From a virus (Duplodnaviria; Heunggongvirae; Uroviricota; Caudoviricetes), in IMG/VR virus record IMGVR_UViG_3300051215_000059: DNA of 64,000 nucleotides. One strand, given 5' to 3'. The translations under genes and the position numbers were made by a program. Under the pieces are notes generated by a model. That model was given only the letters and a program-made list of their open reading frames with translations, was not told the DNA's origin and ran no database searches. Shown piece by piece: positions 4,303 to 39,777 of the stretch. Each line of letters opens with the position of its first letter. Position 1 is the stretch's first letter.

Positions 4303-4356
4303 AAGTGTCCCCAAATGATAAATACAGATGAGAGTTATTTACAGAGGGGATTGGTA

Positions 4357-7080: not shown

Positions 7081-7597
7081 TCAATCAAATACTGTTGTTT
7101 ATAATGAATACATCAAGTATTCTGAAGTCCGTGTCGTTGACGAAGACGGAAGCCCACTTGGCGTGATGGAGATTTCAAAAGCAAGAAATCTTGCTTACGA
7201 TAAAAACTTGGATTTGGTGATTATAACTCATCAAAGCACTCCACCAGTTGCACGTATTGTTGACGTTGCTAAATATACCTACGAACAAAAGAAGCGTCAG
7301 AAAGATGCAGAAAAAAAGGCACGTCAAAATGTCGTTGAGGTCAAAGAGGTAAAAATCAGACCGGGTATTGGACCACATGATTTAGAAATCAAAATGAAGC
7401 AAGTTACAAAGTTTCTTGAGTCAAATGCGAAAGTAAAAATCACCATTCCACTTCGCGGTCGCGAAATCACTAAAGGTAATGATGTTCTTCAAAACATGGT
7501 TGATGATATCGCATCACTACTTACAAATTTCAAATATGAACAAGAACTGAAACAGTCAGGGAATAGAATCACAGGTGTTATAACAAAAGATGGCTAA
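7073..7597 (+). CDS. infC: translation initiation factor IF-3
   Basis: [15 protein letters not shown]...LDLVIIT...[20 protein letters not shown]...[18 protein letters not shown] matches IF3 N- and C-domains; ATG 7073 overlaps clpX stop. Confidence 0.85.
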
Positions 7598-7838
7598 ACA
7601 TTATATAAAAGGCAATGACCAAGAGCGAAATATAAAATCAGGGACAACTGTCACTGTAAAAAATGGAAATGTTGAACGTGCAATTCGTAGGTTCAAAAAG
7701 CTATGCGTGGATGAGAATATCATTCAAGAATATCGCGACCGTCAAGAATATGTAGGCGGAAGCGAAAAGCGTAGAAAAGACAAGGATGCGGGCAAAAAGC
7801 GATGGCAGAAGAAATTGCGCCAGATGCGCAGCGAATAA
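7590..7838 (+). CDS. rpsU: ribosomal protein S21
   Basis: VKNGNVERAIRRFKKLCVDENIIQEYRDRQEY...KRRKDK matches S21 signature (ALRRFKR.CEK...E.RRRE.YEKP..RKR). Confidence 0.75.
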   Translation: MAKHYIKGNDQERNIKSGTTVTVKNGNVERAIRRFKKLCVDENIIQEYRDRQEYVGGSEKRRKDKDAGKKRWQKKLRQMRSE

Positions 7839-8071
7839 TAGACCTAGACCGCTTAGACCTTAGAACCCTTCAAAAAGAATCGTCCCGTGCATTACTGACA
7901 ATGAACGGGACGAATGATGGTATAGCAAAATTCAATAAGGTCGCACATCATAACTCACAACTTTGGTATAAGGCTGTGATACAGTCTTATATTGATGAGC
8001 ATGGTGGATTGCCCAGTGAGGTAGGACCAGCCAAAGATTTTCAACTTTTTTCAGAAAAACTTGGTCTATAA
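7802..8071 (+). CDS. hypothetical protein (start uncertain, overlaps S21 3' end)
   Basis: ORF 89 aa; real start may be downstream. Confidence 0.35.
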   Translation: MAEEIAPDAQRIIDLDRLDLRTLQKESSRALLTMNGTNDGIAKFNKVAHHNSQLWYKAVIQSYIDEHGGLPSEVGPAKDFQLFSEKLGL

Positions 8072-8075
8072 ATGC

Positions 8076-8104
8076 TTGACAAATAACAAAAAAGTTGTTA
8101 TATT
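8076..8104 (+). promoter_or_regulatory. sigma70-like promoter TTGACA-17-TATATT
   Basis: TTGACA 8076-8081, spacer 17, TATATT 8099-8104, upstream of Hsp20 gene. Confidence 0.6.
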
Positions 8105-8191
8105 ATGTGAGTAAAGTTTCATAATGATTTGAACTTTACTGTGACGCCAAAAATGGGTCACTACAATTCTTGCTTATCTAAGGAGAAAAAA

Positions 8192-8629
8192 ATGACACAA
8201 CGCAGAATTACAACTTCAACCCTTCCAAATCTATATAGCGCAACCATTGGTTTTGACAAACTACTTAGTGCGTTGGACGCTCAATTGAACAGTGTCAATA
8301 GTGGCGGATACCCCCCATACAATGTCGCCCAAATCAACGACAATGAGTATATGGTTACTCTTGCTGTTGCTGGATTTGGAATGGATAATCTGGAAATTAC
8401 TCGTGATAAAAACATCCTGAGAATTGAAGGAACTCCACCAAAAGGTGACGAGGAAGTAAACTACCTTCACAAAGGTATTGCGGGTCGTTCATTCCGTAGA
8501 GAGTTCACTCTTGCGGATCATATCGAAATCGCAAACGCAGACTTGGAACTTGGAATGTTGAATATTCATTTGGTCCGAGTTGTTCCACCAGAACTACAAC
8601 CAAAGCGTATCGCGATTACTCAACGATAA
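8192..8629 (+). CDS. small heat shock protein, Hsp20/IbpA family
   Basis: AAGGAGAAAAAA RBS then ATG 8192; alpha-crystallin domain YNVAQINDNEYMVTLAVAGFGMDNLEI...GIAGRSFRREFTLAD. Confidence 0.85.
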   Translation: MTQRRITTSTLPNLYSATIGFDKLLSALDAQLNSVNSGGYPPYNVAQINDNEYMVTLAVAGFGMDNLEITRDKNILRIEGTPPKGDEEVNYLHKGIAGRSFRREFTLADHIEIANADLELGMLNIHLVRVVPPELQPKRIAITQR

Positions 8630-8637
8630 TTCAAACA

Positions 8638-8664
8638 GAGGGGCTGAACAAGCCCCTCACCTTT
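8638..8664 (+). terminator. stem-loop after hsp20 (weak T tract)
   Basis: GAGGGGCT-gaaca-AGCCCCTC 8-bp stem followed by ACCTTT. Confidence 0.4.
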
Positions 8665-8678
8665 AGCGGATAGAAACA

Positions 8679-8981
8679 ATGGCAATAGCAGAAGTAAAAT
8701 CATCAAGTCGCACCGAAATAGAAATTACCGAACCTCTCAACTATTATGTTGTTATGCATAATGATGACACAACTCCAATGGATTTTGTGATTGAGGTTCT
8801 TGCAGAAATTTTTCATCATGATAATCAGACCGCAGTTGACTTGACGATGAAAATTCACGAAGAAGGCAAAGCAATTGTTGGAATGTATAATCTGGAAATT
8901 GCAGAGCAGAAAGTTTCAGATGTATCGTATGTTGCAAAAGCGCACGATTATCCTTTGAAGACTACTGTGGAGCCAGCCTAA
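8679..8981 (+). CDS. clpS: ATP-dependent Clp protease adaptor ClpS
   Basis: YYVVMHNDDTTPMDFVIEVLAEIFHHD...AVDLTMKIHEEGKAIVG matches ClpS core. Confidence 0.85.
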   Translation: MAIAEVKSSSRTEIEITEPLNYYVVMHNDDTTPMDFVIEVLAEIFHHDNQTAVDLTMKIHEEGKAIVGMYNLEIAEQKVSDVSYVAKAHDYPLKTTVEPA

Positions 8982-26632: not shown

Positions 26633-29299
26633 ATGAAAAAACTTCTACTTGCCCTTTTTATTTCATTGTCTGTAATCGTGTCCCCCGTGCTTGCTGGCAC
26701 AGTATATGACACAATTGCGAGTATCAAAAACAAAACAACACAGACCACACTTGCAACGAAATACATGAACCAATATTTGGGGTATATTCAAACATATTCT
26801 GCATACTTGGATGCCAACAAACATATGGATGGAAATGCAAGTTATGAATCATTGGAAGCAAAGGTTGCAATGTATAAAGAAGATGTTGCAAAGTTTGCAA
26901 TTCTTCTTGGTGTTCCGAACCCACTTCAGCCTACTGTTGTAAACACAACTTCAACTAAATCACAAAACACCGCAACAATCGTTTCTGACCCTGTGTTGGT
27001 GAATACGGTAGTTACAAATGATATTGTATACACTGATACCACTACCGACACTTATGAGGTCACCGTAAAGTATTATCAGACTACTACAACTGTTACTCTT
27101 ACCGAAACGGTTCTTACCACTACCTATTACAGTGACGGAACAAACAAAACAAATACCACTACAAATGTCATTTCAACGTCTTCGTCGGTATCAGAAACAC
27201 AAACTACTGACCGAGTTTTGATTAGTTCTGTTCAAAACACAGAAACCAGCCAGTCGGAGTTTTTGACTGCCGAAGAATATGCTGCTCGTAATGACGTAAG
27301 TCTAGCTGGAACACAAACGTTTATTGATGCAGTAAAAGTGACAAACCCATACTATACCAATAGCACTATTCTAAGCCCAAGTGGTCTTGGACTTTATGCA
27401 AACTGGCTTCCTGCTACTGGCGCTCATGTTGCATGGAGTCGTGGATACACTGGTGCTGGTTCAACCATTGCAATCCTAGATACTGGCATTGATTTGGACC
27501 ATCCAGAATTTGATGGACGTATCGTTGGGACCAAATGCTTTACTGTAATGTGCAAAAGTGGGTATGAAACCATTCAAGATAATAACTCAGTTTCGCATGG
27601 CACACATGTTGCTGGTATTGCGGGTGCAGCATTAGATGGCGTTGGCATGACTGGTGTTGCGCCTGACGCTGACCTGTTGATTGGCAAAATTGGTCATGAT
27701 AGCGGATATATTGAACTTGACCAACTTGGTAATGGTATCGCATGGGCAGTATCAAATGGCGCAGATGTAGTAAACGTAAGTGCCGAAATGAGTATGGATT
27801 CTACATACCGTAATAGTGTAGTGTCTATTGGCGATGGTTTTTACTATAGCACCTACAGCCCATACCAATCTCTTGGTTACAACCAAGTGCTAGATAGCAA
27901 CAACTTCACTGCTCCTGTTATCAGTGCGATGAGTGGAAATGACACTGTTCTTGTTGTGGCTGCTGGTAACCAAGGGTTGGCATTTCCAGCGTTTCCTGCT
28001 CACTATGCCACTATCACTGATGAAAATGGCAACCTTGCACTTGACGGTCGGGTAATCATTGCTGGTTCGTTTGACCTTGGAACAAATAATATTGCTTCTT
28101 ACTCAAACCGTGCTGGAACAATGTGCTATGATTACAATTCCGTAACTAATCAGTGTAACAATACCTATCGTGTTAGCGACTATTATTTGATGGCTCCTGG
28201 TTCTTGGGTCACTTCAACCGATAATGGTGGGGACTATCGTGCTCTGAGTGGAACATCTATGGCTGCTCCCGCTATTTCTGGTGGCGTAGCACTAGTTCAT
28301 CAAATGTGGCCATACATGACAGGCGATAATATTGTAAAACTACTCATGGAAACTGCGGACAAATCGTTTGCTGGCTATAATGTAAATATTCACGGTCAAG
28401 GCGTCATGGACCTTGATAACGCAACGTCTCCACAGGGTGCAATTGGTATTCCTACGACTGGTCGGATTGATGGGGCAACCGCTTCGCTTGATGGGCAACT
28501 TTCTGTTGCAGGGATGAATATGGCTTCGTTGTCCAGTATGATGGTCGTTGATGACTATGATCGAAACTTTTATGTTGATGGCAACAAACTGAACGTTGCT
28601 ACTGATACTCGCATGGTGAACCCAGTTCTGGCAGCATCGTATAACTCAAATGCAGACAATTACATGGGTTATACAAAAGGACTAAATATCAATATCGGCA
28701 ATGTTGCTGTATCTACAAACACTGATGGAACAAACTATGGTCTATCATATAACGCAGGATTTATGACATTCGGGATGATGAAAGAAGATGGTTCATTCCT
28801 TGGAAACACGGCGAACAGTCCAATCATGAATGTAACTGGTGCGACTACAACTTATGTAAGTTTCAATCCAGAAATTCAAACTGGAAACGGCTCACTGTTT
28901 GGGAGTATTGGATTTGGTGCGACTGACCTGAATGTTGGAGATAACTCTATGATGAAAAGTGCTGGAACTATAATCAGCAACACAGCAAGCATTGGTGCAA
29001 AATTCAACACGAAAAACGGACACTTTGGAGTTGTGGCGGCACTTCCAGTTTCCATTCAATCTGGGGAAGTGTCAATGGAATATGCATCTTCCGTAAGTGC
29101 TGAAGGTGTGGTATCATCTGCTTCTGCAACTGAATCTCTTGCGAATAATAGTCGTGAAGTAAATCTTGGTGTGTTTTACAATGTAGACGTAGCACCAATG
29201 ACTAACGTTTCTATGTTTGCAGAAGTTCGCGAAAATTACATGGGTATTGCTGGCGAAACCGCGCCACAGATTGGCTTTACCCTTACACAAAGGTTCTAA
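26633..29299 (+). CDS. secreted subtilisin-like (S8) serine peptidase with Thr-rich linker and C-terminal autotransporter-like beta-domain
   Basis: signal peptide MKKLLLALFISLSVIVSPVLA; catalytic D (AILDTGID), H (HGTHVAGI), S (GTSMAAP); C-terminus ends GFTLTQRF as in OM beta-barrels. Confidence 0.8.
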   Translation: MKKLLLALFISLSVIVSPVLAGTVYDTIASIKNKTTQTTLATKYMNQYLGYIQTYSAYLDANKHMDGNASYESLEAKVAMYKEDVAKFAILLGVPNPLQPTVVNTTSTKSQNTATIVSDPVLVNTVVTNDIVYTDTTTDTYEVTVKYYQTTTTVTLTETVLTTTYYSDGTNKTNTTTNVISTSSSVSETQTTDRVLISSVQNTETSQSEFLTAEEYAARNDVSLAGTQTFIDAVKVTNPYYTNSTILSPSGLGLYANWLPATGAHVAWSRGYTGAGSTIAILDTGIDLDHPEFDGRIVGTKCFTVMCKSGYETIQDNNSVSHGTHVAGIAGAALDGVGMTGVAPDADLLIGKIGHDSGYIELDQLGNGIAWAVSNGADVVNVSAEMSMDSTYRNSVVSIGDGFYYSTYSPYQSLGYNQVLDSNNFTAPVISAMSGNDTVLVVAAGNQGLAFPAFPAHYATITDENGNLALDGRVIIAGSFDLGTNNIASYSNRAGTMCYDYNSVTNQCNNTYRVSDYYLMAPGSWVTSTDNGGDYRALSGTSMAAPAISGGVALVHQMWPYMTGDNIVKLLMETADKSFAGYNVNIHGQGVMDLDNATSPQGAIGIPTTGRIDGATASLDGQLSVAGMNMASLSSMMVVDDYDRNFYVDGNKLNVATDTRMVNPVLAASYNSNADNYMGYTKGLNINIGNVAVSTNTDGTNYGLSYNAGFMTFGMMKEDGSFLGNTANSPIMNVTGATTTYVSFNPEIQTGNGSLFGSIGFGATDLNVGDNSMMKSAGTIISNTASIGAKFNTKNGHFGVVAALPVSIQSGEVSMEYASSVSAEGVVSSASATESLANNSREVNLGVFYNVDVAPMTNVSMFAEVRENYMGIAGETAPQIGFTLTQRF

Positions 29300-30056: not shown

Positions 30057-30550
30057 TAAACGCAATATTTGCAATGGACGACAATTGGGGCATAGGAAAG
30101 AACGGCGACTTGCCATGGCCCCGTAACTCTGCCGACTTGAAATGGTTCAAAGATTGCACCAATGGTCATTCGGTGGTAATGGGAAGAAAGACATGGGATA
30201 GCCTTCCATATAAACCACTATCCAACCGTCTGAACTTTGTAATATCGTCTTCCATGAATCCAAATGAATGGAAGAACGCACCCCATGGAGTATATAGTGG
30301 CAATCCTTCTAGAATCATCAAGGAAATCATAGAAACTAGATACTCGGAATACATTACATGGGTCATCGGCGGCGCTTCGCTTATTGAAGACTGCCTTGAT
30401 ATTATAGATGAATTGTGGATAAGTAATATTAGTGGAATATATGATTGTGACGTGTTTTTACCAAAAGAAAAAATAACAAGCCAATTCTATATTCACAATA
30501 ACGAAATAATAGATAGCGGACTATCTATCACAAAATGGAGAAAAAAATGA
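30053..30550 (+). CDS. folA: dihydrofolate reductase
   Basis: MINAIFAMDDNWGIGKNGDLPW...VVMGRKTW...GG DHFR signature. Confidence 0.85.
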   Translation: MINAIFAMDDNWGIGKNGDLPWPRNSADLKWFKDCTNGHSVVMGRKTWDSLPYKPLSNRLNFVISSSMNPNEWKNAPHGVYSGNPSRIIKEIIETRYSEYITWVIGGASLIEDCLDIIDELWISNISGIYDCDVFLPKEKITSQFYIHNNEIIDSGLSITKWRKK

Positions 30551-30873
30551 GTGTTGTGACACTAACCGACAAAGCAATCAATCACTTTACTAATATCGCA
30601 TCTGGAAAACTGGTGAAGTTTGGCATCATCGGTGGTGGATGCGCGGGTTTCCAATACCATTGGGAAATATTCGATGAAGTCAAGGACCATATGTTTGGCG
30701 ATGAGGTTCAAGAATACGATAACTTCACTCTGTATGTTGACAGTCACAGCCTAATGTATCTTATCGGAACGACTGTTGATTATGTCAGCGATATCACTGG
30801 AAGTAAAATTGAACTTTTCAATCCAAATGCACAATCTGGCTGCGGATGTGGAGTTTCGGTGAACTTTGCGTAA
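30535..30873 (+). CDS. A-type iron-sulfur cluster carrier (IscA/ErpA/HesB family)
   Basis: GGGCAGFQY ... C-terminal GCGCGVSF cysteine motif. Confidence 0.8.
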   Translation: MEKKMSVVTLTDKAINHFTNIASGKLVKFGIIGGGCAGFQYHWEIFDEVKDHMFGDEVQEYDNFTLYVDSHSLMYLIGTTVDYVSDITGSKIELFNPNAQSGCGCGVSVNFA

Positions 30874-31318: not shown

Positions 31319-32716
31319 ATGACTGGACTTATTCTAGGCATCGTCTTTATTATTGCGGCAATCGCAATCAAAGCTGTGCCTCTGGTGCCTGAACTACGAA
31401 AAGTAAAAACAATCGTTTCATCTGCGGTCGCCGTTTTTGGTGTTGCAATTATCGGTCTTGGGGCCGTAAGTTACAATGACGCTGGATACTGCCAACACAC
31501 TCGGAGTATTTTTGGAACAGAAACCGCAGTTTGCGAAACAGGTTGGTTTTTTGTCGGTTGGGGAACTTCTACCGCATGGCCTCACTTCATTACAGTCGCA
31601 AACACGATTGATATTGAAGCGGATGGCAGTTCTGTCACGGGTCCATATCGTGTTCGCCTAGCAGACAACTGGACAGGTGATGTTACTCAGACCACTCGTT
31701 TTGCAATCCCACAAGATCAAGAACAATTCTTGACGATGGCACGAACCTTCCGTAGTCCTGAGCGTCTGATTAGCACTACTCTGAAACCTGCCGTTACTGC
31801 ATCGCTTGACTCGGTTTCCAACATGTTTACCATGGAAGAATACTACTCTGGTGGTAAGCGGGACCAATTCAAGAGCGAGTTCAAAGATACTGTTGAAAAG
31901 GGTCGTGCGCAAGTTCGTCAAGTGTCTTTCAACCAAGCGGGTGGCGTAATTCCTAGTCGTGCCGCTCCATCAAGTAGCGATGTTGCTGCCGACACTTCAG
32001 AAGTTGGCGACACAGAAGTTCGTCGTGTTATGATGGAAAAAGTGACAGACGCAAGCGGCAATGACATCCGAACCCCACATGACTTTGCGGAAATCGGTGT
32101 TGTTGTATCATCTGCAATTCTTGAAAACATTGACCCAGATGATGAATATGAGCGTCAAATTGGTGAACGTAAGAAAGCTGCGTCTCGTCGTGTAGTTGCT
32201 CGTGAACAACGCCTTGAGCAAGAAGAACAGCGTCTGCTGGCTATTCAACAAGGTGAAACTGACATTGCCAAGCGTCAAGCAGAAGCAAAAGTGGAACAGA
32301 TTGAAAAGACTACAAACGCCGAAACCACGAAAAAACTTGCTCTAATTGAAGCTGAACGTATCCGCGAGGAAGCCCGAATTGCACAAGAAACCTCGGAAAT
32401 CAATCTGGAACGTGCAAAGGTTGACGCACAATCTGTAACTGTTGCTGCCGATGCAGAAGCCTACGCCAAACAAGCTATCCTTGAAGCTGACGGTGCGCTA
32501 CAACAGAAACTTGATGCTTGGGTTGAAGCACAACGTGTATGGGCAGACGCCGCATCTAAAATCAATGTTCCTTCCACTGTGATTGCTGGTGGTGGTAGCG
32601 ATGGGACTGCGGGAAATGCACTTGGAACCGTAGACCAGTTTATGCAACTGATGATGCTAAACTCTGCAAAGCAACTGAGTGTTGATCCTACTATCGGAAA
32701 CCCTGTAAAGCAGTAA
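31319..32716 (+). CDS. SPFH/band-7 (prohibitin/flotillin/HflKC-like) membrane protein with long C-terminal coiled coil
   Basis: N-terminal TM, SPFH core, Ala/Glu/Gln-rich heptads (IEAERIREEARIAQE...). Confidence 0.75.
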   Translation: MTGLILGIVFIIAAIAIKAVPLVPELRKVKTIVSSAVAVFGVAIIGLGAVSYNDAGYCQHTRSIFGTETAVCETGWFFVGWGTSTAWPHFITVANTIDIEADGSSVTGPYRVRLADNWTGDVTQTTRFAIPQDQEQFLTMARTFRSPERLISTTLKPAVTASLDSVSNMFTMEEYYSGGKRDQFKSEFKDTVEKGRAQVRQVSFNQAGGVIPSRAAPSSSDVAADTSEVGDTEVRRVMMEKVTDASGNDIRTPHDFAEIGVVVSSAILENIDPDDEYERQIGERKKAASRRVVAREQRLEQEEQRLLAIQQGETDIAKRQAEAKVEQIEKTTNAETTKKLALIEAERIREEARIAQETSEINLERAKVDAQSVTVAADAEAYAKQAILEADGALQQKLDAWVEAQRVWADAASKINVPSTVIAGGGSDGTAGNALGTVDQFMQLMMLNSAKQLSVDPTIGNPVKQ

Positions 32717-33469: not shown

Positions 33470-34105
33470 ATGAAAAACAAAGTCATCCCCGTTCCAAAAG
33501 AAACACCAGCGCCACAAACCCCTCCACCACCACCGCCAGCGCCACCAAGTCCACCAAAACAGCTAGGTGAATACTTGCGCGACAATGGTGTGTTGTTTAT
33601 GGACAAAGAGTTCAATCAAGAAAATTGTATGCCACTAGTAAAAATGATTATGGAATACAACTTGATGCCAGCCGATAGAGCACCAGAAGTGATTCATCTA
33701 TATATCAACAGCCCTGGTGGTTACGTTGACAGTTGTATGCATCTGATTGACATTATCAAACAAAGTCGTATTCCAGTATATACCTATGGAATGGGAAGCA
33801 TTGCAAGTTGTGGTGTGATGCTCATGATGTCAGGAGAAAAGGGACACCGTTACCTGACACAAAACACCGCTGTTATGAGCCATGAATTTAGTGGTGGCAC
33901 TCGTGGCCAATACCATGATATGGTTGAAAGCCGCAAACACATGGATTGGACAAACGACAAGTTGCTTGAACACTACATCAAATGCACTGGCAAAACGGAA
34001 AAGTATATTCGTAAGCACTTGCTTGCGCCAAAAACAGACCACTGGCTAACACCAGAAGAAGCAGTCCAACATGGTATTGCTGACGTGGTTGTAGAAACAT
34101 ACTAA
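33470..34105 (+). CDS. clpP: ATP-dependent Clp protease proteolytic subunit ClpP with proline-rich N-terminal extension
   Basis: catalytic Ser in GMGSIASCG, His in MSHEFSGG, Asp in KTDHWL; ClpP fold; N-terminal PAPQTPPPPPPAPPSPP extension. Confidence 0.85.
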   Translation: MKNKVIPVPKETPAPQTPPPPPPAPPSPPKQLGEYLRDNGVLFMDKEFNQENCMPLVKMIMEYNLMPADRAPEVIHLYINSPGGYVDSCMHLIDIIKQSRIPVYTYGMGSIASCGVMLMMSGEKGHRYLTQNTAVMSHEFSGGTRGQYHDMVESRKHMDWTNDKLLEHYIKCTGKTEKYIRKHLLAPKTDHWLTPEEAVQHGIADVVVETY

Positions 34106-34129
34106 CAGTAAAAATAAATCAAAATAAAA

Positions 34130-34158
34130 GAACAGTGATTACTCACTGTTCTTTTTTT
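34130..34158 (+). terminator. rho-independent terminator
   Basis: GAACAGTGA-ttac-TCACTGTTC then TTTTTTT. Confidence 0.8.
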
Positions 34159-34266
34159 ATTGTGGCAGTAATACCACAAAAGTGGATTTTGATTATTCGT
34201 TATATACAGACAAAATAGATAAATAAATAAATGAATTAGTTTGTGTGAATGTGTGGAGAAGTATTA

Positions 34267-34722
34267 ATGTCTAAAGTTCTAAAATGGTGGCTAGTTTTTT
34301 GTTTATCATTAGTTATGGGATACATTGCATACATCTTTGGATGGACTTGGGAAATTTACACCAAGGATACAACTAAAATAAGCGTCTTGATTATAGCGTT
34401 GTATATAATTGCAAGTTTGTTTGTTGGAAAATTGTCTTACGAAAATTCCAAAAACAAAATAGTAGAAGAAAGAACCGAAATTGCATGGTTCATAAGTGAA
34501 ACTATGTTGACACTTGGTATGATTGGAACCGTTGCTGGTTTTATTATGATGCTAGGCGGTTCGTTTGCTGAAATAGATGCTTCTAATCCAGAAACACTAA
34601 AATCTGCACTTGTCGCAATGGCGCTTGGTATGAGCACTGCACTATATACTACTCTTGTCGGGTTGGTATGTAGTCAAGTATTAAAGATACAACTTGTCAA
34701 TTTAGAGTCAGGCAACCAATGA
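34267..34722 (+). CDS. MotA/TolQ/ExbB-family proton-channel protein (short form)
   Basis: LGMIGTVAGFIMML and ALGMSTALYTTLVGLVCSQVL match the conserved C-terminal TM pair of ExbB/TolQ/MotA. Confidence 0.6.
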   Translation: MSKVLKWWLVFCLSLVMGYIAYIFGWTWEIYTKDTTKISVLIIALYIIASLFVGKLSYENSKNKIVEERTEIAWFISETMLTLGMIGTVAGFIMMLGGSFAEIDASNPETLKSALVAMALGMSTALYTTLVGLVCSQVLKIQLVNLESGNQ

Positions 34723-34723
34723 T

Positions 34724-35437
34724 ATGAAAAGATCACACTACGGAAGTGGCATAGCATTTAATGATTTGTTATTCAACTTGTTGGTGGGATTTGTATTTTT
34801 GTTCACGGTTGCATTTATTTTAATCAATCCGCAAGCGAAAAAAAATGATATACCATCAAAAGCTGAATACCTATTCGCCATCGAATGGGACTCAGAATCG
34901 TATGACGATATTGATATTTGGGTAAGAGACCCAAATGGAATAACCGTAAGTTTCTTGAGTAAAGATGGCGGTTTACTCAATCTTGAAAGAGACGATCTTG
35001 GTAAAAGTAACGATACGTATGAATCCCCAGATGGGACAGAGACTATTGTAAAAACCAATCGGGAAGTTACTACAATGCGTGGAATTATCCCAGGAACTTA
35101 TACAGTTATGGCCCACGTTTTCAATAAGTATGAAAATAAAAATAATCCAGACCCATATTCTCCATTGTCTTTTAAAATGATACGTGTGAATCCGTATCAA
35201 GAAGTATATACTTCAGAACACAGATATAAAGATAAAGGCCAAATCGTTCCAATCCTACAATTCGATTTAGATGAAAATGGAAAGGCAAGCAATTTTAGAT
35301 TTCCTACTGAAAATATAGTAATAAAATCCAATTCCAGAATTAGTGGTTCACTTATATCTGACACGTTTGTCAGTGGTGGATTGCAAAAATCTAATAAAAA
35401 ATATACCGCAGGGTCAAGTTTCATAAATGTAGAGTAA
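34724..35437 (+). CDS. ExbD/TolR/MotB-like single-pass membrane partner with extended periplasmic domain
   Basis: stop-start 1-nt gap with upstream gene; TM IAFNDLLFNLLVGFVFLFTV with Asp near TM start as in ExbD/TolR. Confidence 0.45.
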   Translation: MKRSHYGSGIAFNDLLFNLLVGFVFLFTVAFILINPQAKKNDIPSKAEYLFAIEWDSESYDDIDIWVRDPNGITVSFLSKDGGLLNLERDDLGKSNDTYESPDGTETIVKTNREVTTMRGIIPGTYTVMAHVFNKYENKNNPDPYSPLSFKMIRVNPYQEVYTSEHRYKDKGQIVPILQFDLDENGKASNFRFPTENIVIKSNSRISGSLISDTFVSGGLQKSNKKYTAGSSFINVE

Positions 35438-35443
35438 AATAAA

Positions 35444-35929
35444 ATGATATATAGCAGCGAATTGTTACCTATTTTAATATCCCTTATGTTCCTATCAATT
35501 GTTGTATTGTGGGTAGCGATAAGAAACTATAAAAATTTCCTGATTACTTTTATAATCATACCAGTAACATTCGTTAGTGTCATTACAAGTTATCTCACAT
35601 TACAGAACCTTTTAGGATTTCCCGTTGTTACTCCAATTCCAAATGACAGTTTTTATATAAATCACATTGTTGATGGTGATGTGATTTATGTTTGGGCATG
35701 GCCGACTGAAACTGAAAAGCCTAGACTGTATAGTATTCCAAATACTGAGCAAAACAAAAAGGCGATGGATGAAGCAGCAAAAGCACAAGAAGAAGGCAAA
35801 GGCCAAAAAATTGGTCAAGAAGGTGCAGACCAAGATGGAACTGGAGTAGGCAAAGGGCAAACGCAGGGTGGAGAATATAACACCTATGACTTTGTTGTTA
35901 CTGATCCAGACAATTTAAAAGGAAATTGA
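35444..35929 (+). CDS. membrane protein (2 TM) with Gly/Gln-rich low-complexity tail
   Basis: 161 aa. Confidence 0.5.
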   Translation: MIYSSELLPILISLMFLSIVVLWVAIRNYKNFLITFIIIPVTFVSVITSYLTLQNLLGFPVVTPIPNDSFYINHIVDGDVIYVWAWPTETEKPRLYSIPNTEQNKKAMDEAAKAQEEGKGQKIGQEGADQDGTGVGKGQTQGGEYNTYDFVVTDPDNLKGN

Positions 35930-35930
35930 T

Positions 35931-36191
35931 ATGGAATACAATGCAGTCCTAGTAGTGGTTTACTTTATAGTATCGGTGTTCAATGTGCAACTCGGAGCAC
36001 CGATTATTCAACACATACCGTATACGTCTTTGGAAGATTGCAAAGCACATGCCCAAATGCTAGAAAATCAAAAGACGCAAATTGACATAGAATGGACTGT
36101 CTATTCAAGGTCACAATGTATGACACGTCAAGAATATGATGCCGCAGTTGCGGAACAATCAAAACAACAACCAGACACACCCGCACAGTAA
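35931..36191 (+). CDS. small secreted or membrane-anchored protein
   Basis: N-terminal hydrophobic segment VLVVVYFIVSVF. Confidence 0.45.
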   Translation: MEYNAVLVVVYFIVSVFNVQLGAPIIQHIPYTSLEDCKAHAQMLENQKTQIDIEWTVYSRSQCMTRQEYDAAVAEQSKQQPDTPAQ

Positions 36192-36224
36192 CTAAAATAA
36201 CAATACAATATAGGGGAAACCAAT

Positions 36225-37088
36225 ATGAATATATGGAAGAAGGTTAGACTCTTTATATTTGAATCAATAGAGGGATTGTGGATATATAGAGCGATACGTA
36301 GGCTGATTTCACAGCCATTAATGCTCTCGCTAATAATCATCATAATGTTGTTAGCTGGAAATCAAATAAGAATGTCATATAACGCATACAACGAGTTATA
36401 CACTGAACTAAACAATCCCTCAAAAGAAGTTACTGCGGTAGAAGAAGTTGGGTTAGAGTTCAAACAGATTGATGACAACTTGTATACATTAACTGGTGGC
36501 ATAAAAGAAGGCGATTGTCAAAAAATCGTCCCGTTGTTACCAGACCATTTCACTGTTATTTTAGAAAGCCCTGGCGGAAGTCTTGCAGATGGTTCATGTC
36601 TGGCTGCACATTTCAAAATACGGGACGTAGTAACGGTTGTCCGTGCAACCCCAGTTTATAATGACATGGGGAAAAATATATACCAACCAGGATTGATAGC
36701 ACCAAAAGACTCTGGTATGGAGGGAAACTCAATATGCGCCAGTGCTTGTGGTCTGCTATTCTTGGCTGGTGATGTTCGCTATCTGATTGGCGATGTATGG
36801 TTTGGTATACATTCTCCTGCAACCCCAGAAGGCGCTGGTGGAGGAATGAACCAGTCGCAAGTCGAATCATCAACGTTGAGAGTTGCCAGTAGCTTGTTAT
36901 CGTTACTTGAAGATTTGGGCGTCACAGATGCAGACGTAAGACAACTATTCATTCAAATACCAAATTCGAATATGTATTGGCTAAAGCCAGATGACTTTAA
37001 AGTTAAGCCAGGATTACTTAACATCGCAACAAATTATAGAAACTTTTGGGGTTTTACTGCTGCTAACCCAATAAGTGGATTAGAGTAG
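36225..37088 (+). CDS. membrane-anchored ClpP/crotonase-fold serine peptidase (S49/NfeD-like)
   Basis: N-terminal TM; ILESPGGSL, Ser in ICASACGL, His in GIHSP, as in ClpP-class S14/S49 peptidases. Confidence 0.6.
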   Translation: MNIWKKVRLFIFESIEGLWIYRAIRRLISQPLMLSLIIIIMLLAGNQIRMSYNAYNELYTELNNPSKEVTAVEEVGLEFKQIDDNLYTLTGGIKEGDCQKIVPLLPDHFTVILESPGGSLADGSCLAAHFKIRDVVTVVRATPVYNDMGKNIYQPGLIAPKDSGMEGNSICASACGLLFLAGDVRYLIGDVWFGIHSPATPEGAGGGMNQSQVESSTLRVASSLLSLLEDLGVTDADVRQLFIQIPNSNMYWLKPDDFKVKPGLLNIATNYRNFWGFTAANPISGLE

Positions 37089-37099
37089 GGAGATAAAAA

Positions 37100-38164
37100 A
37101 TGCTAAAAAGTTTCTTTTGGAACAGAGAAACCGCGTTATATTCTTGGCTAATGTTAGCATGGTTGCTATTCGTTGGTTGGTATAGCGTTGAAATTCTCGT
37201 ATATTATAATGCGTGGAACAGAGAGTTCTATGATGCCATACAAACGCTACAAGAGGAAACCTTTTGGGAATTGTTATGGGGTTGGGATACAGGAAGATTT
37301 TTTGACTTTCTAATGCTAAGAATCGACTCCGAAATGATTGTTCCCAGTTTCTTGGAAATCATTGTGCTATACACTCCAATCGCAGTTTATTCAACGTGGC
37401 AAACACAGCGTTACACGTTTGCATGGAGAGAAGCAAACACGATGTATTATCTAAAGCGTTGGGAAAAATCAACGGCAAAGATTGAAGGTGGCTCACAGCG
37501 TATACAAGAAGACTTGATGGTCTTTGGAAAAACACTACAAGGTCTATTTGCTGGATTTGTGAATAAGATTTTTGTTCTTGCAGCTTTCTTGCCAGTTTTG
37601 TGGAATCTGAGCGAAGGACTGCCAGTGTGGGGCGACCAAATAATTCCTGGGTTCTTGGTGTGGGTTGCTCTTACCATGTCCTTGGGCGGAACATTGCTGT
37701 CATTCTTGTTGGGTATAAAACTTCCTGGGTTAGAATATAACAACCAAGTGGTAGAAGCACAGTTTAGAAAGAAGTTAGTTCATTCCGAAGATGATTTCAA
37801 CCATCGTTTGACCGCAGACCTATTCCCTATGTTTGCTTCAATCAAACGTAACTATTATCGTTTGTTCAACTGGTATATGGGATTTGGTGTATGGCAAACC
37901 GCATTTGGTATGATAGCAGGAAACGTGGCTCTTGTTGTGCTGGCACCAAGCTATTTCGCACAGTTGGTTACATTTGGTGTTCTCATACAAGTTCTAAATG
38001 CGTTTGGACGAGTTGAAAGTGCGCTTACATACTTCATTGACCGTTGGACAACGATTGTTGATTTCCAGTCTGTTATAAAGCGTTTACGAGAATTCAACAG
38101 AGTGTTGGACGAAGCTGACGCCAACTCGGCTAATGCGACACCACCAAGTAACCCCACACCATAA
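37100..38164 (+). CDS. SbmA/BacA-family inner-membrane peptide transporter homologue
   Basis: 8-TM protein; motifs MLKSFF, NAWNREFYDAIQT, QRIQEDL...AFLPVLW, GIKLPGLEY, KRNYYRLF, RWTTIVDF, IKRLREF line up with SbmA as recalled from memory. Confidence 0.6.
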   Translation: MLKSFFWNRETALYSWLMLAWLLFVGWYSVEILVYYNAWNREFYDAIQTLQEETFWELLWGWDTGRFFDFLMLRIDSEMIVPSFLEIIVLYTPIAVYSTWQTQRYTFAWREANTMYYLKRWEKSTAKIEGGSQRIQEDLMVFGKTLQGLFAGFVNKIFVLAAFLPVLWNLSEGLPVWGDQIIPGFLVWVALTMSLGGTLLSFLLGIKLPGLEYNNQVVEAQFRKKLVHSEDDFNHRLTADLFPMFASIKRNYYRLFNWYMGFGVWQTAFGMIAGNVALVVLAPSYFAQLVTFGVLIQVLNAFGRVESALTYFIDRWTTIVDFQSVIKRLREFNRVLDEADANSANATPPSNPTP

Positions 38165-38182: not shown

Positions 38183-38211
38183 TTGACAAGACTCCAGTTA
38201 GATGCTATTAT
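38183..38211 (+). promoter_or_regulatory. sigma70-like promoter TTGACA-17-TATTAT
   Basis: TTGACAAGACTCCAGTTAGATGCTATTAT. Confidence 0.55.
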
Positions 38212-39375: not shown

Positions 39376-39777
39376 ATGGAACCGAAACTGTATATTATCA
39401 TGCGCAAAGACATTCAGGACATGAATCCTGGCAAGGCTATGGCGCAAGCTGCACACGCGCAATCTGACTTTGACGAATTTGTGGAATCGTCGAAACTTGC
39501 GCCCTTGGATTTCAAAACTGCTGCACTATTCAATGCGGTTGCACAATGGAAAGAAGATCGGTCTTTTGGCGTCACACTGGTTCTGCATGAACCTCTGGAT
39601 GTCATCAATCAAATCACCAGTGTCATTCCAAACAGTGGGATGACGGTTGATCCTACCTACCCTTGGCGTAACTTTTATGGTGATGTTTTTGTAAGCTGTG
39701 AAGTTACTTGTGCTTGGGTGTTTGTTTACACCGAAGAAGAAGCCGAATATATGAAACAGTTCTCTCTGCATCGGTAG
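39376..39777 (+). CDS. peptidyl-tRNA hydrolase PTH2-like protein
   Basis: YIIMRKDIQDMNPGKAMAQAAHA resembles PTH2 N-terminal motif (R.DL.M..GK.AAQ..HA). Confidence 0.45.
   Translation: MEPKLYIIMRKDIQDMNPGKAMAQAAHAQSDFDEFVESSKLAPLDFKTAALFNAVAQWKEDRSFGVTLVLHEPLDVINQITSVIPNSGMTVDPTYPWRNFYGDVFVSCEVTCAWVFVYTEEEAEYMKQFSLHR

What the first reader, a model, noticed from the sequence alone, without database searches (positions are those of the whole stretch)
34267..38164. Phage-encoded ExbB-like / ExbD-like / periplasmic ClpP-fold peptidase / SbmA-BacA-like membrane module
Six co-directional, tightly spaced genes lie between a terminator (34130-34158) and a promoter (38183). They are: a short MotA/TolQ/ExbB-family channel (34267), an ExbD/TolR-like single-pass partner with a long periplasmic domain (34724), two small membrane proteins, a membrane-anchored ClpP-fold serine peptidase with Ser/His motifs (36225), and an 8-TM protein whose motifs (NAWxxxFYDxIQT, QRxQEDx, FLPVLW, GIKLPGLEx, KRNYxRLF, SWTTxVxx, YKRLRxFE) line up with the SbmA/BacA peptide importer. 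In bacteria, ExbB-ExbD-TonB energises outer-membrane uptake and SbmA imports microcins and proline-rich peptides across the inner membrane. A phage carrying both halves of such a pathway plus a periplasmic protease is not a described system as far as I know. It could serve peptide or nutrient uptake during infection, processing of an imported or virion component, superinfection control, or PMF hijacking. The neighbouring ClpP carries an unusual Pro-rich, TonB-linker-like N-terminal extension.
Basis: partly seen in the sequence, partly recalled or inferred. Interest (0 to 1): 0.85.

Follow-up and report, generated by a model that had tools for sequence, protein, structure and literature searches.

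The report
Phage membrane motor–protease–importer module
A large uncultivated phage carries a tight six-gene operon for a miniature proton-driven membrane motor, a protease facing the periplasm and a cut-down SbmA-type peptide importer; the same genes recur in hundreds of other phage contigs, appear in no paper in the held library, and their job during infection is still unknown.

Summary
The six genes are real, tightly packed and bounded as described. Three family calls hold. ORF A is a minimal MotA/TolQ/ExbB protein. ORF E has a ClpP fold, with an invariant Ser and His at the ClpP catalytic positions. ORF F is an SbmA/BacA-family protein.

Two details are wrong. F has about 6 TM helices, not 8, because it lacks SbmA's TM0 domain. 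ORF B shares only the N-terminal Asp-bearing TM helix with ExbD/TolR; its periplasmic domain is a TerD-like beta-sandwich.

No TonB, TolA or outer-membrane receptor is present, so "both halves of a Ton–SbmA pathway" is not supported.

Surveys of viral contigs show two cassettes:
- A-B-C: 461 viral stretches, about 1,880 clusters at 50% identity, and 23 cultured Rhizobium phage records.
- (D)-E-F: 294 stretches.

The cassettes are joined in at least four different orders, once with a second SbmA lineage. ClpP, ClpS or IscA-like genes are repeatedly next to them.

Best reading, largely inferred: a phage-specific, proton-powered envelope module that cuts a periplasmic substrate, imports the pieces and hands them to Clp proteolysis.

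It is a new variant of known machine types, undescribed in the literature searched.

The parts
33470..34105 (+). Cytoplasmic ClpP with a Pro-rich N-terminal extension. It has no predicted TM helix. It is a recurrent neighbour of the module.
   Evidence: Pfam CLP_protease E 5e-33. S113, H138 and D190 are invariant in 19 relatives. ClpP lies next to A-B-C or E-F as P-A-B-C, E-F-A-B-C-P and P-E-F-A-B-C.
34126..34155 (+). Intrinsic-terminator-like hairpin separating ClpP from the operon.
   Evidence: 13-bp stem, 4-nt loop and T-run.
34267..34722 (+). A: minimal (151 aa, 4 TM) MotA/TolQ/ExbB-family ion-channel subunit.
   Evidence: Pfam PF01618 at 30 bits, above the cut-off of 22.9. 33 of 33 relatives hit the model. 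The GTVxG and ALxxT motifs align with those of TolQ, which by my numbering contain T145 and T178. The family profile's only PDB hits are ExbB, MotA and ZorA, all weak at E 0.08-1.
34724..35437 (+). B: single-pass partner. An N-terminal TM helix carries an invariant Asp14, followed by a periplasmic TerD-like beta-sandwich.
35444..35929 (+). C: protein with two TM helices, a short conserved C-terminal domain inferred to be periplasmic, and a low-complexity tail. It is the third member of the A-B-C trio.
   Evidence: Hydropathy. Alignment of 36 relatives with P40 and G58 invariant. Present in 74 of 79 B-centred loci. No family or PDB match.
35931..36191 (+). D: small protein with a signal-anchor and two invariant Cys. 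It precedes E-F in one lineage.
   Evidence: Alignment of 20 relatives with C37 and C63 invariant. Present in 39 of 78 F-centred loci.
36225..37088 (+). E: inner-membrane-anchored ClpP-fold serine peptidase candidate, inferred to face the periplasm.
37100..38164 (+). F: SbmA/BacA-family (SLiPT) transporter core without the TM0 domain.
   Evidence: Pfam SbmA_BacA E 7e-78. SbmA 7p34 E 1.9e-57, aligned to residues 86-395. E193, E276, E287, R280 and D288 are invariant in 57 of 57 relatives. E203 is Gln in 51 of 57.
38183..38211 (+). Sigma-70-like promoter of the next transcription unit, marking the downstream boundary.
   Evidence: TTGACA, 17-nt spacer, TATTAT with an upstream TG; 11 of 12 matches.

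Best explanation
This is a phage-specific envelope module built from two cassettes that phages repeatedly keep together.

Cassette 1 (A-B-C). A is a stripped-down MotA/ExbB-type channel. B has an ExbD/TolR-like Asp-bearing TM helix and a TerD-like periplasmic beta-sandwich. Together they most likely form a 5:2-type stator that turns proton flow into movement of B in the periplasm. C is a membrane accessory. Because A has almost no cytoplasmic domain, the work output must be periplasmic.

Cassette 2 ((D)-E-F). E is anchored in the inner membrane and presents a ClpP-fold Ser/His peptidase to the periplasm. F is a proton-coupled SbmA-type importer lacking the TM0 domain.

Proposed flow. A periplasmic or envelope substrate is cut by E. 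The fragments are imported by F. They are finished in the cytoplasm by the phage's own Clp machinery: ClpP next door, with ClpX and ClpS elsewhere in the window. A-B-C supplies proton-derived force for delivering or unfolding the substrate, or for another envelope step.

Shown: the family or fold of A, B, E and F, the conserved key residues, the gene linkage, and the phage restriction.

Inferred: the 5:2 assembly, the topology, the protease activity, peptide transport, any coupling between the cassettes, and the physiological purpose (nutrient or amino-acid salvage during infection).
For: Identities.

Operon packing.

Linkage.
- A-B-C-D-E-F, E-F-A-B-C-ClpP, ClpP-E-F-A-B-C, A-B-C-F' and A-B-C-ClpS-F' all occur in viral contigs.
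- F' is a second SbmA lineage, 37-40% identical to F, with Pfam scores of 395-459 bits.
- Five contigs whose D-E-F stands alone carry A-B-C 30-48 kb away on the same contig.

Proteolysis theme.
- ClpP is adjacent in 24 of 79 B-centred loci.
- ClpS directly follows C in 6 loci (Pfam E 4e-31).
- One lineage reads Hsp20-DnaK-A-B-C-ClpS-F'...ClpP.
- The window itself encodes ClpX, Hsp20 and ClpS.

Periplasmic site of action: invariant Cys pairs in D and E. The positive charges in E lie before its TM helix.

F keeps most of the SbmA proton ladder and gate residues defined in PMC8442886.

Phage restriction.
- A scan of genome contigs with the E profile found only a T4-like contig inside a MAG, plus three distant secreted alphaproteobacterial proteins with no SbmA neighbour.
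- The B homologues listed come almost entirely from metagenomic sources.
Against: - No substrate is known and nothing was tested experimentally.
- A-B-C stands without E-F within 6 kb in 63 of 79 B-centred loci. It is also the more widespread cassette, with 461 viral stretches against 294. Its function therefore cannot depend on E-F.
- In F, SbmA's proposed first proton site E203 is Gln in 51 of 57 relatives.
- E lacks an Asp at the ClpP triad position. It gets no HMM hit to any protease family. The hhalign probability is only 31%.
- C and D have no recognisable fold.
- Part of the ClpP and IscA neighbourhood may be inherited gene order rather than functional linkage.
- The loci analysed are the best 80 of each scan, so the counts are biased towards relatives of this window.
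Confidence: 0.4

Rival explanations
1. Ton/Tol surrogate for metal or cofactor uptake. A-B-C replaces or boosts the host ExbB-ExbD-TonB or TolQRA complex to drive outer-membrane uptake of iron complexes, haem, B12 or peptides. F then carries the cargo across the inner membrane. E processes a carrier protein, as in the Pectobacterium ferredoxin-uptake (Fus) system.
For: - The A and B motifs align with TolQ/TolR and ExbD.
- The three-gene order mirrors tolQ-tolR-tolA.
- IscA/HesB-like Fe-S genes lie upstream of A in about 40 loci, in four of them (L081, L083, L084, L087) within 26-49 bp. A FeS_assembly_P gene follows F' in L128.
- F also matches the TMD of PDB entry 6tqe at E 5e-16. From my own knowledge that entry is the mycobacterial cobalamin importer Rv1819c.
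- The Fus parallel rests on my own knowledge.
Against: - B lacks the ExbD/TolR periplasmic domain that contacts TonB or TolA.
- C has no TonB_C or TolA hit, no single-TM SHLS-type anchor and no invariant His.
- No TonB-dependent receptor lies in the module.
- The IscA linkage could be inherited synteny.
Confidence: 0.2
2. Two unrelated cassettes that are merely neighbours. A-B-C and (D)-E-F each do their own job, and their adjacency in this window has no functional meaning.
For: - Most A-B-C loci have no F within 6 kb (63 of 79), and 24 D-E-F loci have no A-B-C within 6-8 kb.
- A-B-C alone exists in cultured Rhizobium phages, including a 68-kb phage.
Against: - At least four different gene orders keep the cassettes adjacent, including overlapping stop and start codons.
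- A second, independently derived SbmA lineage also sits beside A-B-C.
- Where D-E-F stands alone, A-B-C was found on the same contig in five cases.
Confidence: 0.17
3. Superinfection exclusion or an anti-competitor device. The module alters the infected cell's envelope so that other phages, colicins or peptide antibiotics cannot enter. It might do this by poisoning the host Ton/Tol motors, by degrading receptors with E, or by acting as a Zorya-like envelope sensor.
For: - The best NCBIfam and PADLOC hits for A are ZorA models, though weak (E 2e-7 and 1e-6).
- In T4-like and 68-kb phages the module sits among early or replication genes. That is where exclusion genes often lie (my own knowledge).
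Against: - The ZorA similarity is confined to the shared MotA/ExbB core.
- A is 151 aa and has no ZorA tail. There is no ZorB-, ZorC- or ZorD-like protein and no other PADLOC hit.
- An importer would admit peptides rather than exclude them.
Confidence: 0.12
4. Peptide signalling. D is a secreted pro-peptide, E matures it and F re-imports it, giving large lytic phages an arbitrium-like way to sense infection density.
For: D is a small protein with a signal-anchor and a conserved disulfide pair. It lies immediately upstream of E-F in 39 of 78 F-centred loci.
Against: - D is absent from the E-F-A-B-C-ClpP arrangement.
- No receptor or regulator candidate was found.
- D's conserved core looks like a folded domain rather than a short signal peptide.
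Confidence: 0.04

Closest known systems
ExbB-ExbD and TolQ-TolR: non-flagellar 5:2 ion-driven motors, the 'generic ion transporter' class of PMC12505986
   Same: - A passes the Pfam MotA_ExbB model and shares the GTVxG and ALxxT channel motifs.
- B is encoded immediately downstream, is single-pass, and carries the invariant Asp at the start of its TM helix.
- A third membrane protein gene follows, as in tolQRA.
   Different: - A is only 151 aa, with 4 TM helices and almost no cytoplasmic domain.
- B's periplasmic domain is a TerD-like beta-sandwich rather than the ExbD/TolR fold.
- C is not recognisably TonB or TolA.
- The system is encoded by phages, which the 2025 survey of 205 bacterial genomes did not cover.
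SbmA/BacA (SLiPT-fold proton-driven peptide importers; PDB 7p34)
   Same: - Full-length Pfam match and E 1.9e-57 to E. coli SbmA.
- No nucleotide-binding domain.
- E193, E276, E287, R280, D288 and Y116 are conserved.
   Different: - F lacks TM0a and TM0b, like the 326-aa NCBIfam family PRK12369. It scores below the curated cut-offs of both NCBIfam models.
- E203 is Gln, Y285 is His/Phe/Tyr/Ile, and E378 is mostly Asp.
- It is always paired with E in this lineage.
ClpP, SppA and NfeD (ClpP/crotonase-fold serine peptidases)
   Same: - The SPGG oxyanion-type motif is present.
- Ser173 and His196 align with the ClpP Ser and His.
- Like SppA and NfeD, it is membrane-anchored.
   Different: - No HMM hit to any of these families.
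- No Asp at the ClpP triad position.
- The presumed nucleophile is flanked by two invariant Cys (CASAC).
- The orientation is inferred to be periplasmic, with a single N-terminal anchor.
TerD (tellurite-resistance, Ca2+-binding beta-sandwich; PDB 2kxt and 2qz7)
   Different: - TerD proteins are soluble (my own knowledge).
- Sequence identity is 11-15%.
- Calcium binding was not tested.
Zorya ZorA-ZorB anti-phage motor
   Same: A's best NCBIfam and PADLOC hits are ZorA models. Both are non-flagellar members of the MotA/ExbB superfamily.
   Different: - No ZorA tail, because A is 151 aa.
- No ZorB peptidoglycan-binding domain.
- No ZorC or ZorD effectors.
Fus ferredoxin-uptake system of Pectobacterium (receptor, TonB-like protein, periplasmic protease, inner-membrane transporter). 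This comparison rests on my own knowledge and was not checked here.
   Same: The same logic: envelope energiser, periplasmic protease and inner-membrane importer encoded together.
   Different: - No outer-membrane receptor and no TonB homologue.
- The protease and transporter belong to unrelated families.

Membership tests
MotA/TolQ/ExbB (Pfam PF01618), for A | Significant match to the family HMM above the curated cut-off | tested here: met
   30 bits against a gathering score of 22.9, E 5e-7. 33 of 33 relatives match, best E 9.5e-10.
MotA/TolQ/ExbB (Pfam PF01618), for A | Channel-lining hairpin with conserved Thr residues (the TolQ T145/T178-type motifs; residue numbers from my own knowledge) | tested here: met
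   G84, G87, T88, G91 and T129 are invariant when aligned with the GTVWG and ALIAT motifs of E. coli TolQ.
MotA/TolQ/ExbB (Pfam PF01618), for A | Pentamer enclosing a dimer of the B subunit | not testable with these tools
   No multimer prediction was available.
MotA/TolQ/ExbB (Pfam PF01618), for A | Sizeable cytoplasmic domain between the TM helices | tested here: not met
   151 aa in total. The cytoplasmic loop is about 20 aa and the tail about 12 aa.
ExbD/TolR (Pfam PF02472), for B | Match to the ExbD family HMM | tested here: not met
   No Pfam, NCBIfam or PHROG hit at E up to 1. None of the homologues listed carries a Pfam domain.
ExbD/TolR (Pfam PF02472), for B | Single N-terminal TM helix with an essential Asp near its cytoplasmic end | tested here: met
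   D14 is invariant in 34 relatives. It aligns with ExbD D25 and TolR D23. The AF2 model places a helix at 8-34.
ExbD/TolR (Pfam PF02472), for B | Periplasmic alpha/beta ExbD/TolR domain | tested here: not met
   [not shown]
ExbD/TolR (Pfam PF02472), for B | Gene immediately downstream of a MotA/ExbB-family gene | tested here: met
   The gap is 1 nt in the window. A is present in 76 of 79 B-centred loci.
TonB/TolA, for C | Recognisable TonB_C or TolA domain, and a single TM anchor with a conserved His motif | tested here: not met
   No Pfam hit and no PDB profile hit. C has two TM helices and no invariant His.
ClpP (peptidase S14), for E | ClpP/crotonase fold | tested here: met
   [not shown]
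ClpP (peptidase S14), for E | Catalytic Ser and His at the ClpP positions | tested here: met
   hhalign places S173 and H196 on the invariant Ser and His of the phage ClpP family (E 5e-4, probability 31%). Both are invariant in 32 and 36 relatives.
ClpP (peptidase S14), for E | Catalytic Asp completing the triad | tested here: not met
   In the hhalign alignment, my residue mapping puts the invariant M250 opposite ClpP D190.
ClpP (peptidase S14), for E | Match to the CLP_protease HMM | tested here: not met
   No Pfam or NCBIfam protease hit. The family profile found nothing in the PDB.
SbmA/BacA (SLiPT; Pfam PF05992), for F | Full-length match to the family HMM and to solved SbmA | tested here: met
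   262.7 bits covering profile positions 3-314 of 315. PDB 7p34 at E 1.9e-57.
SbmA/BacA (SLiPT; Pfam PF05992), for F | Glutamate ladder E193, E203, E276, E287 and E378 (PMC8442886) | tested here: inconclusive
   E193, E276 and E287 are invariant. E378 is Asp or Glu. E203 is Gln in 51 of 57 relatives.
SbmA/BacA (SLiPT; Pfam PF05992), for F | [quoted passage not shown] | tested here: not met
   The HMMER alignment starts at SbmA residue 86. F has about 6 hydrophobic segments where SbmA has 8 TM helices.
SbmA/BacA (SLiPT; Pfam PF05992), for F | No nucleotide-binding domain; proton-driven peptide import | not testable with these tools
   The absence of an NBD is seen directly: the protein ends at 354 aa with no ABC ATPase hit. 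Transport and its energisation need experiments.
Ton system as a whole | ExbB, ExbD, TonB and a TonB-dependent outer-membrane receptor | tested here: not met
   Only the ExbB-like part passes a family test. No TonB or receptor homologue is present among A-F and their neighbours.
Zorya defence system | ZorA with a long cytoplasmic tail, ZorB with a peptidoglycan-binding domain, and ZorC/D or other effectors | tested here: not met
   The only PADLOC hits are weak core matches of A to ZorA (26 bits or less). There is nothing for B-F.

The most novel reading that the evidence does not exclude
A-B-C is a previously unrecognised, virus-borne family of 5:2 ion-driven motors. It has the smallest known MotA/ExbB subunit and a TerD-like rotor domain. 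It works mechanically with an SbmA-type importer, a periplasmic ClpP-fold protease and cytoplasmic Clp proteolysis. On this reading the phage installs its own proton-powered machine to harvest envelope or periplasmic proteins, or an external substrate, and feed them into the infected cell.
Probability: 0.15. Interest if true: 0.9.

Novelty: new variant of a known kind. Interest (0 to 1): 0.72.

Why it matters
1. It adds a phage-encoded branch to the 5:2 ion-motor superfamily. That superfamily is under active structural study (flagellar stators, Ton, Tol, gliding, Zorya). This branch is unusually small and may therefore be tractable. The B family is large, with about 1,880 clusters at 50% identity, and has no annotation at all.

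2. No earlier report of SbmA/BacA-type transporters as a recurrent phage gene family turned up. They occur on 294 viral stretches, in two lineages, one of them always paired with a periplasmic protease. SbmA is of practical interest as the entry route for peptide antibiotics and antisense oligomers. A phage that installs such a gate could change its host's sensitivity to them.

3. The repeated linkage to ClpP, ClpS, chaperones and Fe-S carriers points to an unexplored way in which large, apparently aquatic phages re-engineer the envelope and proteostasis of the infected cell.

4. Cultured Rhizobium phages carry A-B-C, so its function can be tested genetically now.

Tried and rejected
- Nucleotide search of the module against GenBank phages: no match.
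- Protein search of F against phages: only mislabelled bacterial sequence ('Acinetobacter phage MD-2021a') and two short unannotated fragments.
- The nearest cultured relatives of the window phage, Alishewanella phage Slicko01 and Sinorhizobium phage phiN3, were found through the SPFH protein. They lack the module next to that gene. SPFH is therefore not part of the module.
- Profile searches of B, C and E against PDB sequences: nothing usable.
- Foldseek of the B model against viral structures: no convincing hit, TM-score 0.4 or below.
- The afdb50 fold library was unavailable.
- PADLOC: only weak ZorA core hits, so the Zorya reading was rejected.
- Lysis cassette (holin plus spanins): rejected. 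A is a consistent MotA/ExbB member. In T4-like and Rhizobium phages the trio sits among replication and late-transcription genes.
- ClpP as prohead protease: unlikely. It lies among non-structural genes, matches Pfam CLP_protease end to end with an intact Ser-His-Asp triad, and the phage also has ClpX and ClpS.
- Low GC at 34-36 kb (0.35 against about 0.41): noted as a possible sign of recent acquisition, but not pursued.
- Literature searches for phage SbmA, phage ExbB or TolQ, and PF05992: no relevant paper.

Full report
1. WHAT IS IN THE WINDOW

Between 34267 and 38164 lie six + strand ORFs:
- A, 34267-34722
- B, 34724-35437
- C, 35444-35929
- D, 35931-36191
- E, 36225-37088
- F, 37100-38164

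The gaps between them are 1, 6, 1, 33 and 11 nt. One automatic gene call on an identical public contig uses a shorter start for E that would remove its membrane anchor. The hydrophobic N-terminal segment is kept in all 32 relatives aligned, so the long form is preferred.

A 13-bp hairpin followed by a T-run at 34126-34155 separates the operon from the upstream ClpP gene. The best sigma-70-like site of the region, at 38183-38211, follows the operon.

The window is phage DNA.
- Nearly all ORFs run in one direction.
- It encodes a primase, an RNA ligase, a metallophosphoesterase and a clamp-loader-like ATPase.
- Its SPFH protein is 58% identical to that of Alishewanella phage Slicko01 and 49% identical to that of Sinorhizobium phage phiN3.
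- Proteins identical to B and F sit on public metagenomic contigs from several samples. Two size blocks fall in the 0.2-1 Mb class, and a 246-kb contig is on record. This is therefore a jumbo-size phage.

2. WHAT EACH GENE IS

A
- A passes Pfam MotA_ExbB (30 bits, cut-off 22.9). So do all 33 relatives scanned.
- Aligned with E. coli TolQ, its invariant G84, G87, T88, G91 and T129 fall on the GTVWG and ALIAT channel motifs.
- The family profile's only PDB hits are ExbB, MotA, a MotA/TolQ/ExbB-domain protein and ZorA. All are weak, at E 0.08-1.
- A is 151 aa with four hydrophobic helices and almost no cytoplasmic mass.

B
- B has no hit in Pfam, NCBIfam, PHROGs or PADLOC.
- Its AF2 model (pLDDT 82.8) is one TM helix (8-34) followed by a beta-sandwich (47-192).
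- The invariant D14 at the cytoplasmic end of the helix aligns with ExbD D25 and TolR D23, inside a shared F-x-D-(L/V)-(L/M)-(L/F) pattern.
- B therefore works like the 'B' subunit of a 5:2 motor but is not a member of the ExbD family.

C
- C has two TM helices, a short conserved domain and a low-complexity acidic/Gly/Gln tail.
- Nothing matches it.

D
- D is a small protein with a signal-anchor and two invariant Cys.

E
- E has no HMM hit.
- Profile-profile alignment with the phage ClpP family (E 5e-4, probability 31%) puts ILESPGG on INSPGG, S173 on the ClpP Ser and H196 on the ClpP His. All of these are invariant.
- By my mapping of that alignment, the ClpP Asp position is an invariant Met in E.
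- The presumed nucleophile sits in an invariant C-A-S-A-C motif. Two further Cys are invariant.
- The N-terminal Lys/Arg residues lie before the anchor. Together with the Cys pattern, this argues for a periplasmic domain. This is an inference.

F
- F matches Pfam SbmA_BacA over the full model (E 7e-78) and the solved E. coli SbmA (E 1.9e-57).
- The alignment begins at SbmA residue 86. [quoted passage not shown]
- Hydropathy gives about six segments.
- Of the functionally tested SbmA residues, E193, E276, E287, R280 and D288 are invariant in 57 phage relatives, and Y116 is kept in 56. E378 is Asp or Glu.
- E203, the proposed first proton site, is Gln in 51 of 57.
- F scores below the curated cut-offs of both NCBIfam SbmA-type models. 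Its best match is the 326-aa 'putative transporter' family PRK12369.

Upstream ClpP (33470-34105)
- It is a complete CLP_protease with an invariant Ser-His-Asp triad, no TM helix and a conserved Pro-rich N-terminal extension.

3. DISTRIBUTION AND LINKAGE

Cultured phages
- F: tblastn finds no credible homologue in GenBank phages.
- A and B: tblastn finds them only in Rhizobium phages, 23 records in all. These are T4-like phages of 150-170 kb and a 68-kb phage. Everything is annotated 'hypothetical'.
- In RHph_I46 the A-B-C trio lies next to the late sigma factor and the gp47/gp46-type nuclease genes.

Uncultivated viral contigs (IMG/VR)
- A profile of B finds 461 stretches and a profile of F finds 294.
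- Against 1.84 billion cluster representatives, the B profile finds 1,880 proteins at E up to 1e-3. The 150 best shown are mostly about 200-230 aa and match over most of their length.
- None of the listed homologues of B or E carries a Pfam domain.

Synteny, by HMM searches over all fetched loci

| Set | Loci | Neighbour counts |
|---|---|---|
| B-centred | 79 | A in 76, C in 74, F in 16, ClpP in 24 |
| F-centred | 78 | E in 58, D in 39, B in 33 |

Arrangements seen among loci L080-L236. This set partly re-samples contigs already fetched in the earlier scans.

| Arrangement | Loci |
|---|---|
| A-B-C | 44 |
| D-E-F | 24 |
| E-F-A-B-C-ClpP, often with 4-bp overlaps | 17 |
| A-B-C-D-E-F | 15 (6 of them with ClpP 1.6-2.2 kb upstream) |
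| ClpP-A-B-C | 7 |
| ClpP-E-F-A-B-C | 6 |
| A-B-C followed by a second SbmA lineage, F' | 8 |

F' is 37-40% identical to F and has stronger Pfam scores, 395-459 bits. It has no E beside it.

Five contigs with D-E-F alone carry A-B-C 30-48 kb away on the same contig.

A scan of 185,579 species genomes with the E profile found four loci:
- one E-F-A-B-C-ClpP locus on a 106-kb contig in a Gammaproteobacteria MAG, whose flanks are T4-type genes (late sigma factor, SbcD-like and SbcC-like nuclease subunits, helicase);
- three distant secreted alphaproteobacterial proteins with no SbmA neighbour.

The module is therefore, as far as seen, phage-specific.

All these counts come from the 80 best loci per scan, so they lean towards relatives of this window.

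4. RECURRENT NEIGHBOURS

Besides ClpP, three kinds of gene recur beside the module.
- ClpS directly follows C in six loci (Pfam E 4e-31 and 2.5e-24).
- One lineage reads Hsp20-DnaK-A-B-C-ClpS-F'-FeS_assembly_P...ClpP.
- An IscA/HesB-like gene (window 30535-30873) lies upstream of A in about 40 loci. The distances run from 26 bp to 4.7 kb in most of them.

The window phage itself encodes ClpX (5836-7080), Hsp20 (8129-8629), ClpS (8679-8981) and an 888-aa S8 peptidase.

Part of this neighbourhood may be inherited gene order. However, ClpP or ClpS touches the module in several different orders.

5. HOW IT MOST LIKELY WORKS

Shown
- A MotA/ExbB-type subunit sits next to a single-pass partner with the essential-Asp helix.
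- A ClpP-fold protein has Ser and His in place.
- An SbmA-type core keeps most ladder and gate residues.
- The operon is tightly organised.
- The two cassettes are repeatedly juxtaposed.

Inferred
- A and B form a 5:2 stator. Because A lacks a cytoplasmic domain, its work is delivered in the periplasm through B's TerD-like domain, possibly with C.
- E cuts a periplasmic or envelope substrate.
- F imports the fragments using the proton gradient.
- The phage Clp system finishes them.

I put this at 0.4. Rivals:
- A Ton/Tol surrogate for metal or cofactor uptake (0.2). The Fe-S gene linkage favours it. The missing TonB or TolA, the missing receptor and B's non-ExbD domain weaken it.
- Two functionally unrelated cassettes (0.17).
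- Superinfection exclusion or defence (0.12). The ZorA similarity is only the shared core.
- A D-E-F peptide signal (0.04).

6. COMPARISON WITH WHAT IS KNOWN, AND NOVELTY

The A-B pair fits the 'generic ion transporter' class of ExbBD/TolQR-like motors. In bacteria, the B subunits of that class have repeatedly acquired different periplasmic domains (PMC12505986). That survey covered bacterial genomes only.

The SbmA/BacA distribution study (PMC12003926) and two SbmA/BacA structure-function papers (PMC8442886, PMC12912959) do not mention phages. Full-text searches for phage-encoded SbmA or ExbB found nothing relevant.

Each part belongs to a known superfamily. What is new:
- the phage-borne minimal motor with a TerD-like partner;
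- the TM0-less SbmA lineage tied to a periplasmic ClpP-fold protease;
- their recurrent combination with Clp components.

I rate it a new variant of known kinds, with an interest score of 0.72.

Noticed in passing
window 5836-8981: A proteostasis cluster. ClpX (zf-C4_ClpX, AAA_2 and ClpB_D2-small domains) lies at 5836-7080, an Hsp20 homologue at 8129-8629 and a ClpS homologue at 8679-8981. With ClpP at 33470-34105, the phage encodes ClpX, ClpP and ClpS. No ClpA was seen.
   Followed up: partly
window 30535-30873, and about 40 related loci: An IscA/HesB-type Fe-S carrier gene (Pfam Fe-S_biosyn, E 1.6e-13) lies 3.4 kb upstream of A here. In other viral contigs it lies mostly 26 bp to 4.7 kb upstream of A, sometimes in two copies. 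A FeS_assembly_P gene follows F' in L128. This may point to an iron theme or may be inherited synteny.
   Followed up: partly
L128 2929-11798; L133; L224, L226, L228, L230: In a low-GC (0.32) lineage, seen on a 328-kb viral contig (L128) and a 9.5-kb one (L133), the order is Hsp20-DnaK-A-B-C-ClpS-F'-FeS_assembly_P-aldehyde dehydrogenase-ClpP. In a separate group (L224, L226, L228, L230), C is followed directly by ClpS and F' lies 4.2 kb downstream.
   Followed up: partly
window 36225-37088 (E) and 35931-36191 (D): The presumed nucleophile of E sits in an invariant C171-A-S173-A-C175 motif. C98 and C125 are also invariant. D has invariant C37 and C63. A Ser flanked by two Cys looked unusual for a ClpP-fold enzyme from memory; I did not check this. 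It might mean a disulfide or redox control.
   Followed up: no
window 26633-29299 and 31319-32716: An 888-aa Peptidase_S8 protein and a 465-aa SPFH/Band 7 protein with two N-terminal TM helices lie just upstream. The SPFH protein is shared with Alishewanella phage Slicko01 and Sinorhizobium phage phiN3. It does not travel with the module.
   Followed up: partly
window 34001-36000: GC drops to 0.349 over A-D, against 0.40-0.43 on either side. This could reflect the composition of membrane-protein genes or a more recent acquisition.
   Followed up: no
window 37100-37117: F begins MLKSFF and E. coli SbmA begins MFKSFF. MAFFT aligns the two N-termini even though HMMER aligns the body of F to SbmA from residue 86. 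This hints that the short form arose by internal loss of TM0, or it is coincidence.
   Followed up: no
L001 (CAKLQH020000002.1, 'Acinetobacter phage MD-2021a'): This 254-kb GenBank 'phage' record carries sbmA among gatA/gatB, tdcB, pepO and bcr. It looks like bacterial chromosome, so it is not evidence for phage SbmA.
   Followed up: partly
L079 1640-3501 (E. coli K-12 sbmA-yaiW): E. coli sbmA is followed 13 bp later by yaiW, a surface-exposed outer-membrane lipoprotein. An SbmA gene with an envelope partner gene therefore has a bacterial precedent.
   Followed up: no
window 39376-39777, 4315-5826: A PTH2-type peptidyl-tRNA hydrolase-like protein scores just above the Pfam cut-off. A 503-aa membrane protein has a weak peptidoglycan-binding (PG_binding_3) match that is below the cut-off.
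   Followed up: no
L080 2394-3391, L181 333-1348, L064 2487-3506: A GroES-like gene (weak Cpn10 match, below the cut-off) immediately precedes ClpP in the lineages where ClpP lies 1.6-4 kb upstream of A. A clamp-loader gene lies in between.
   Followed up: partly
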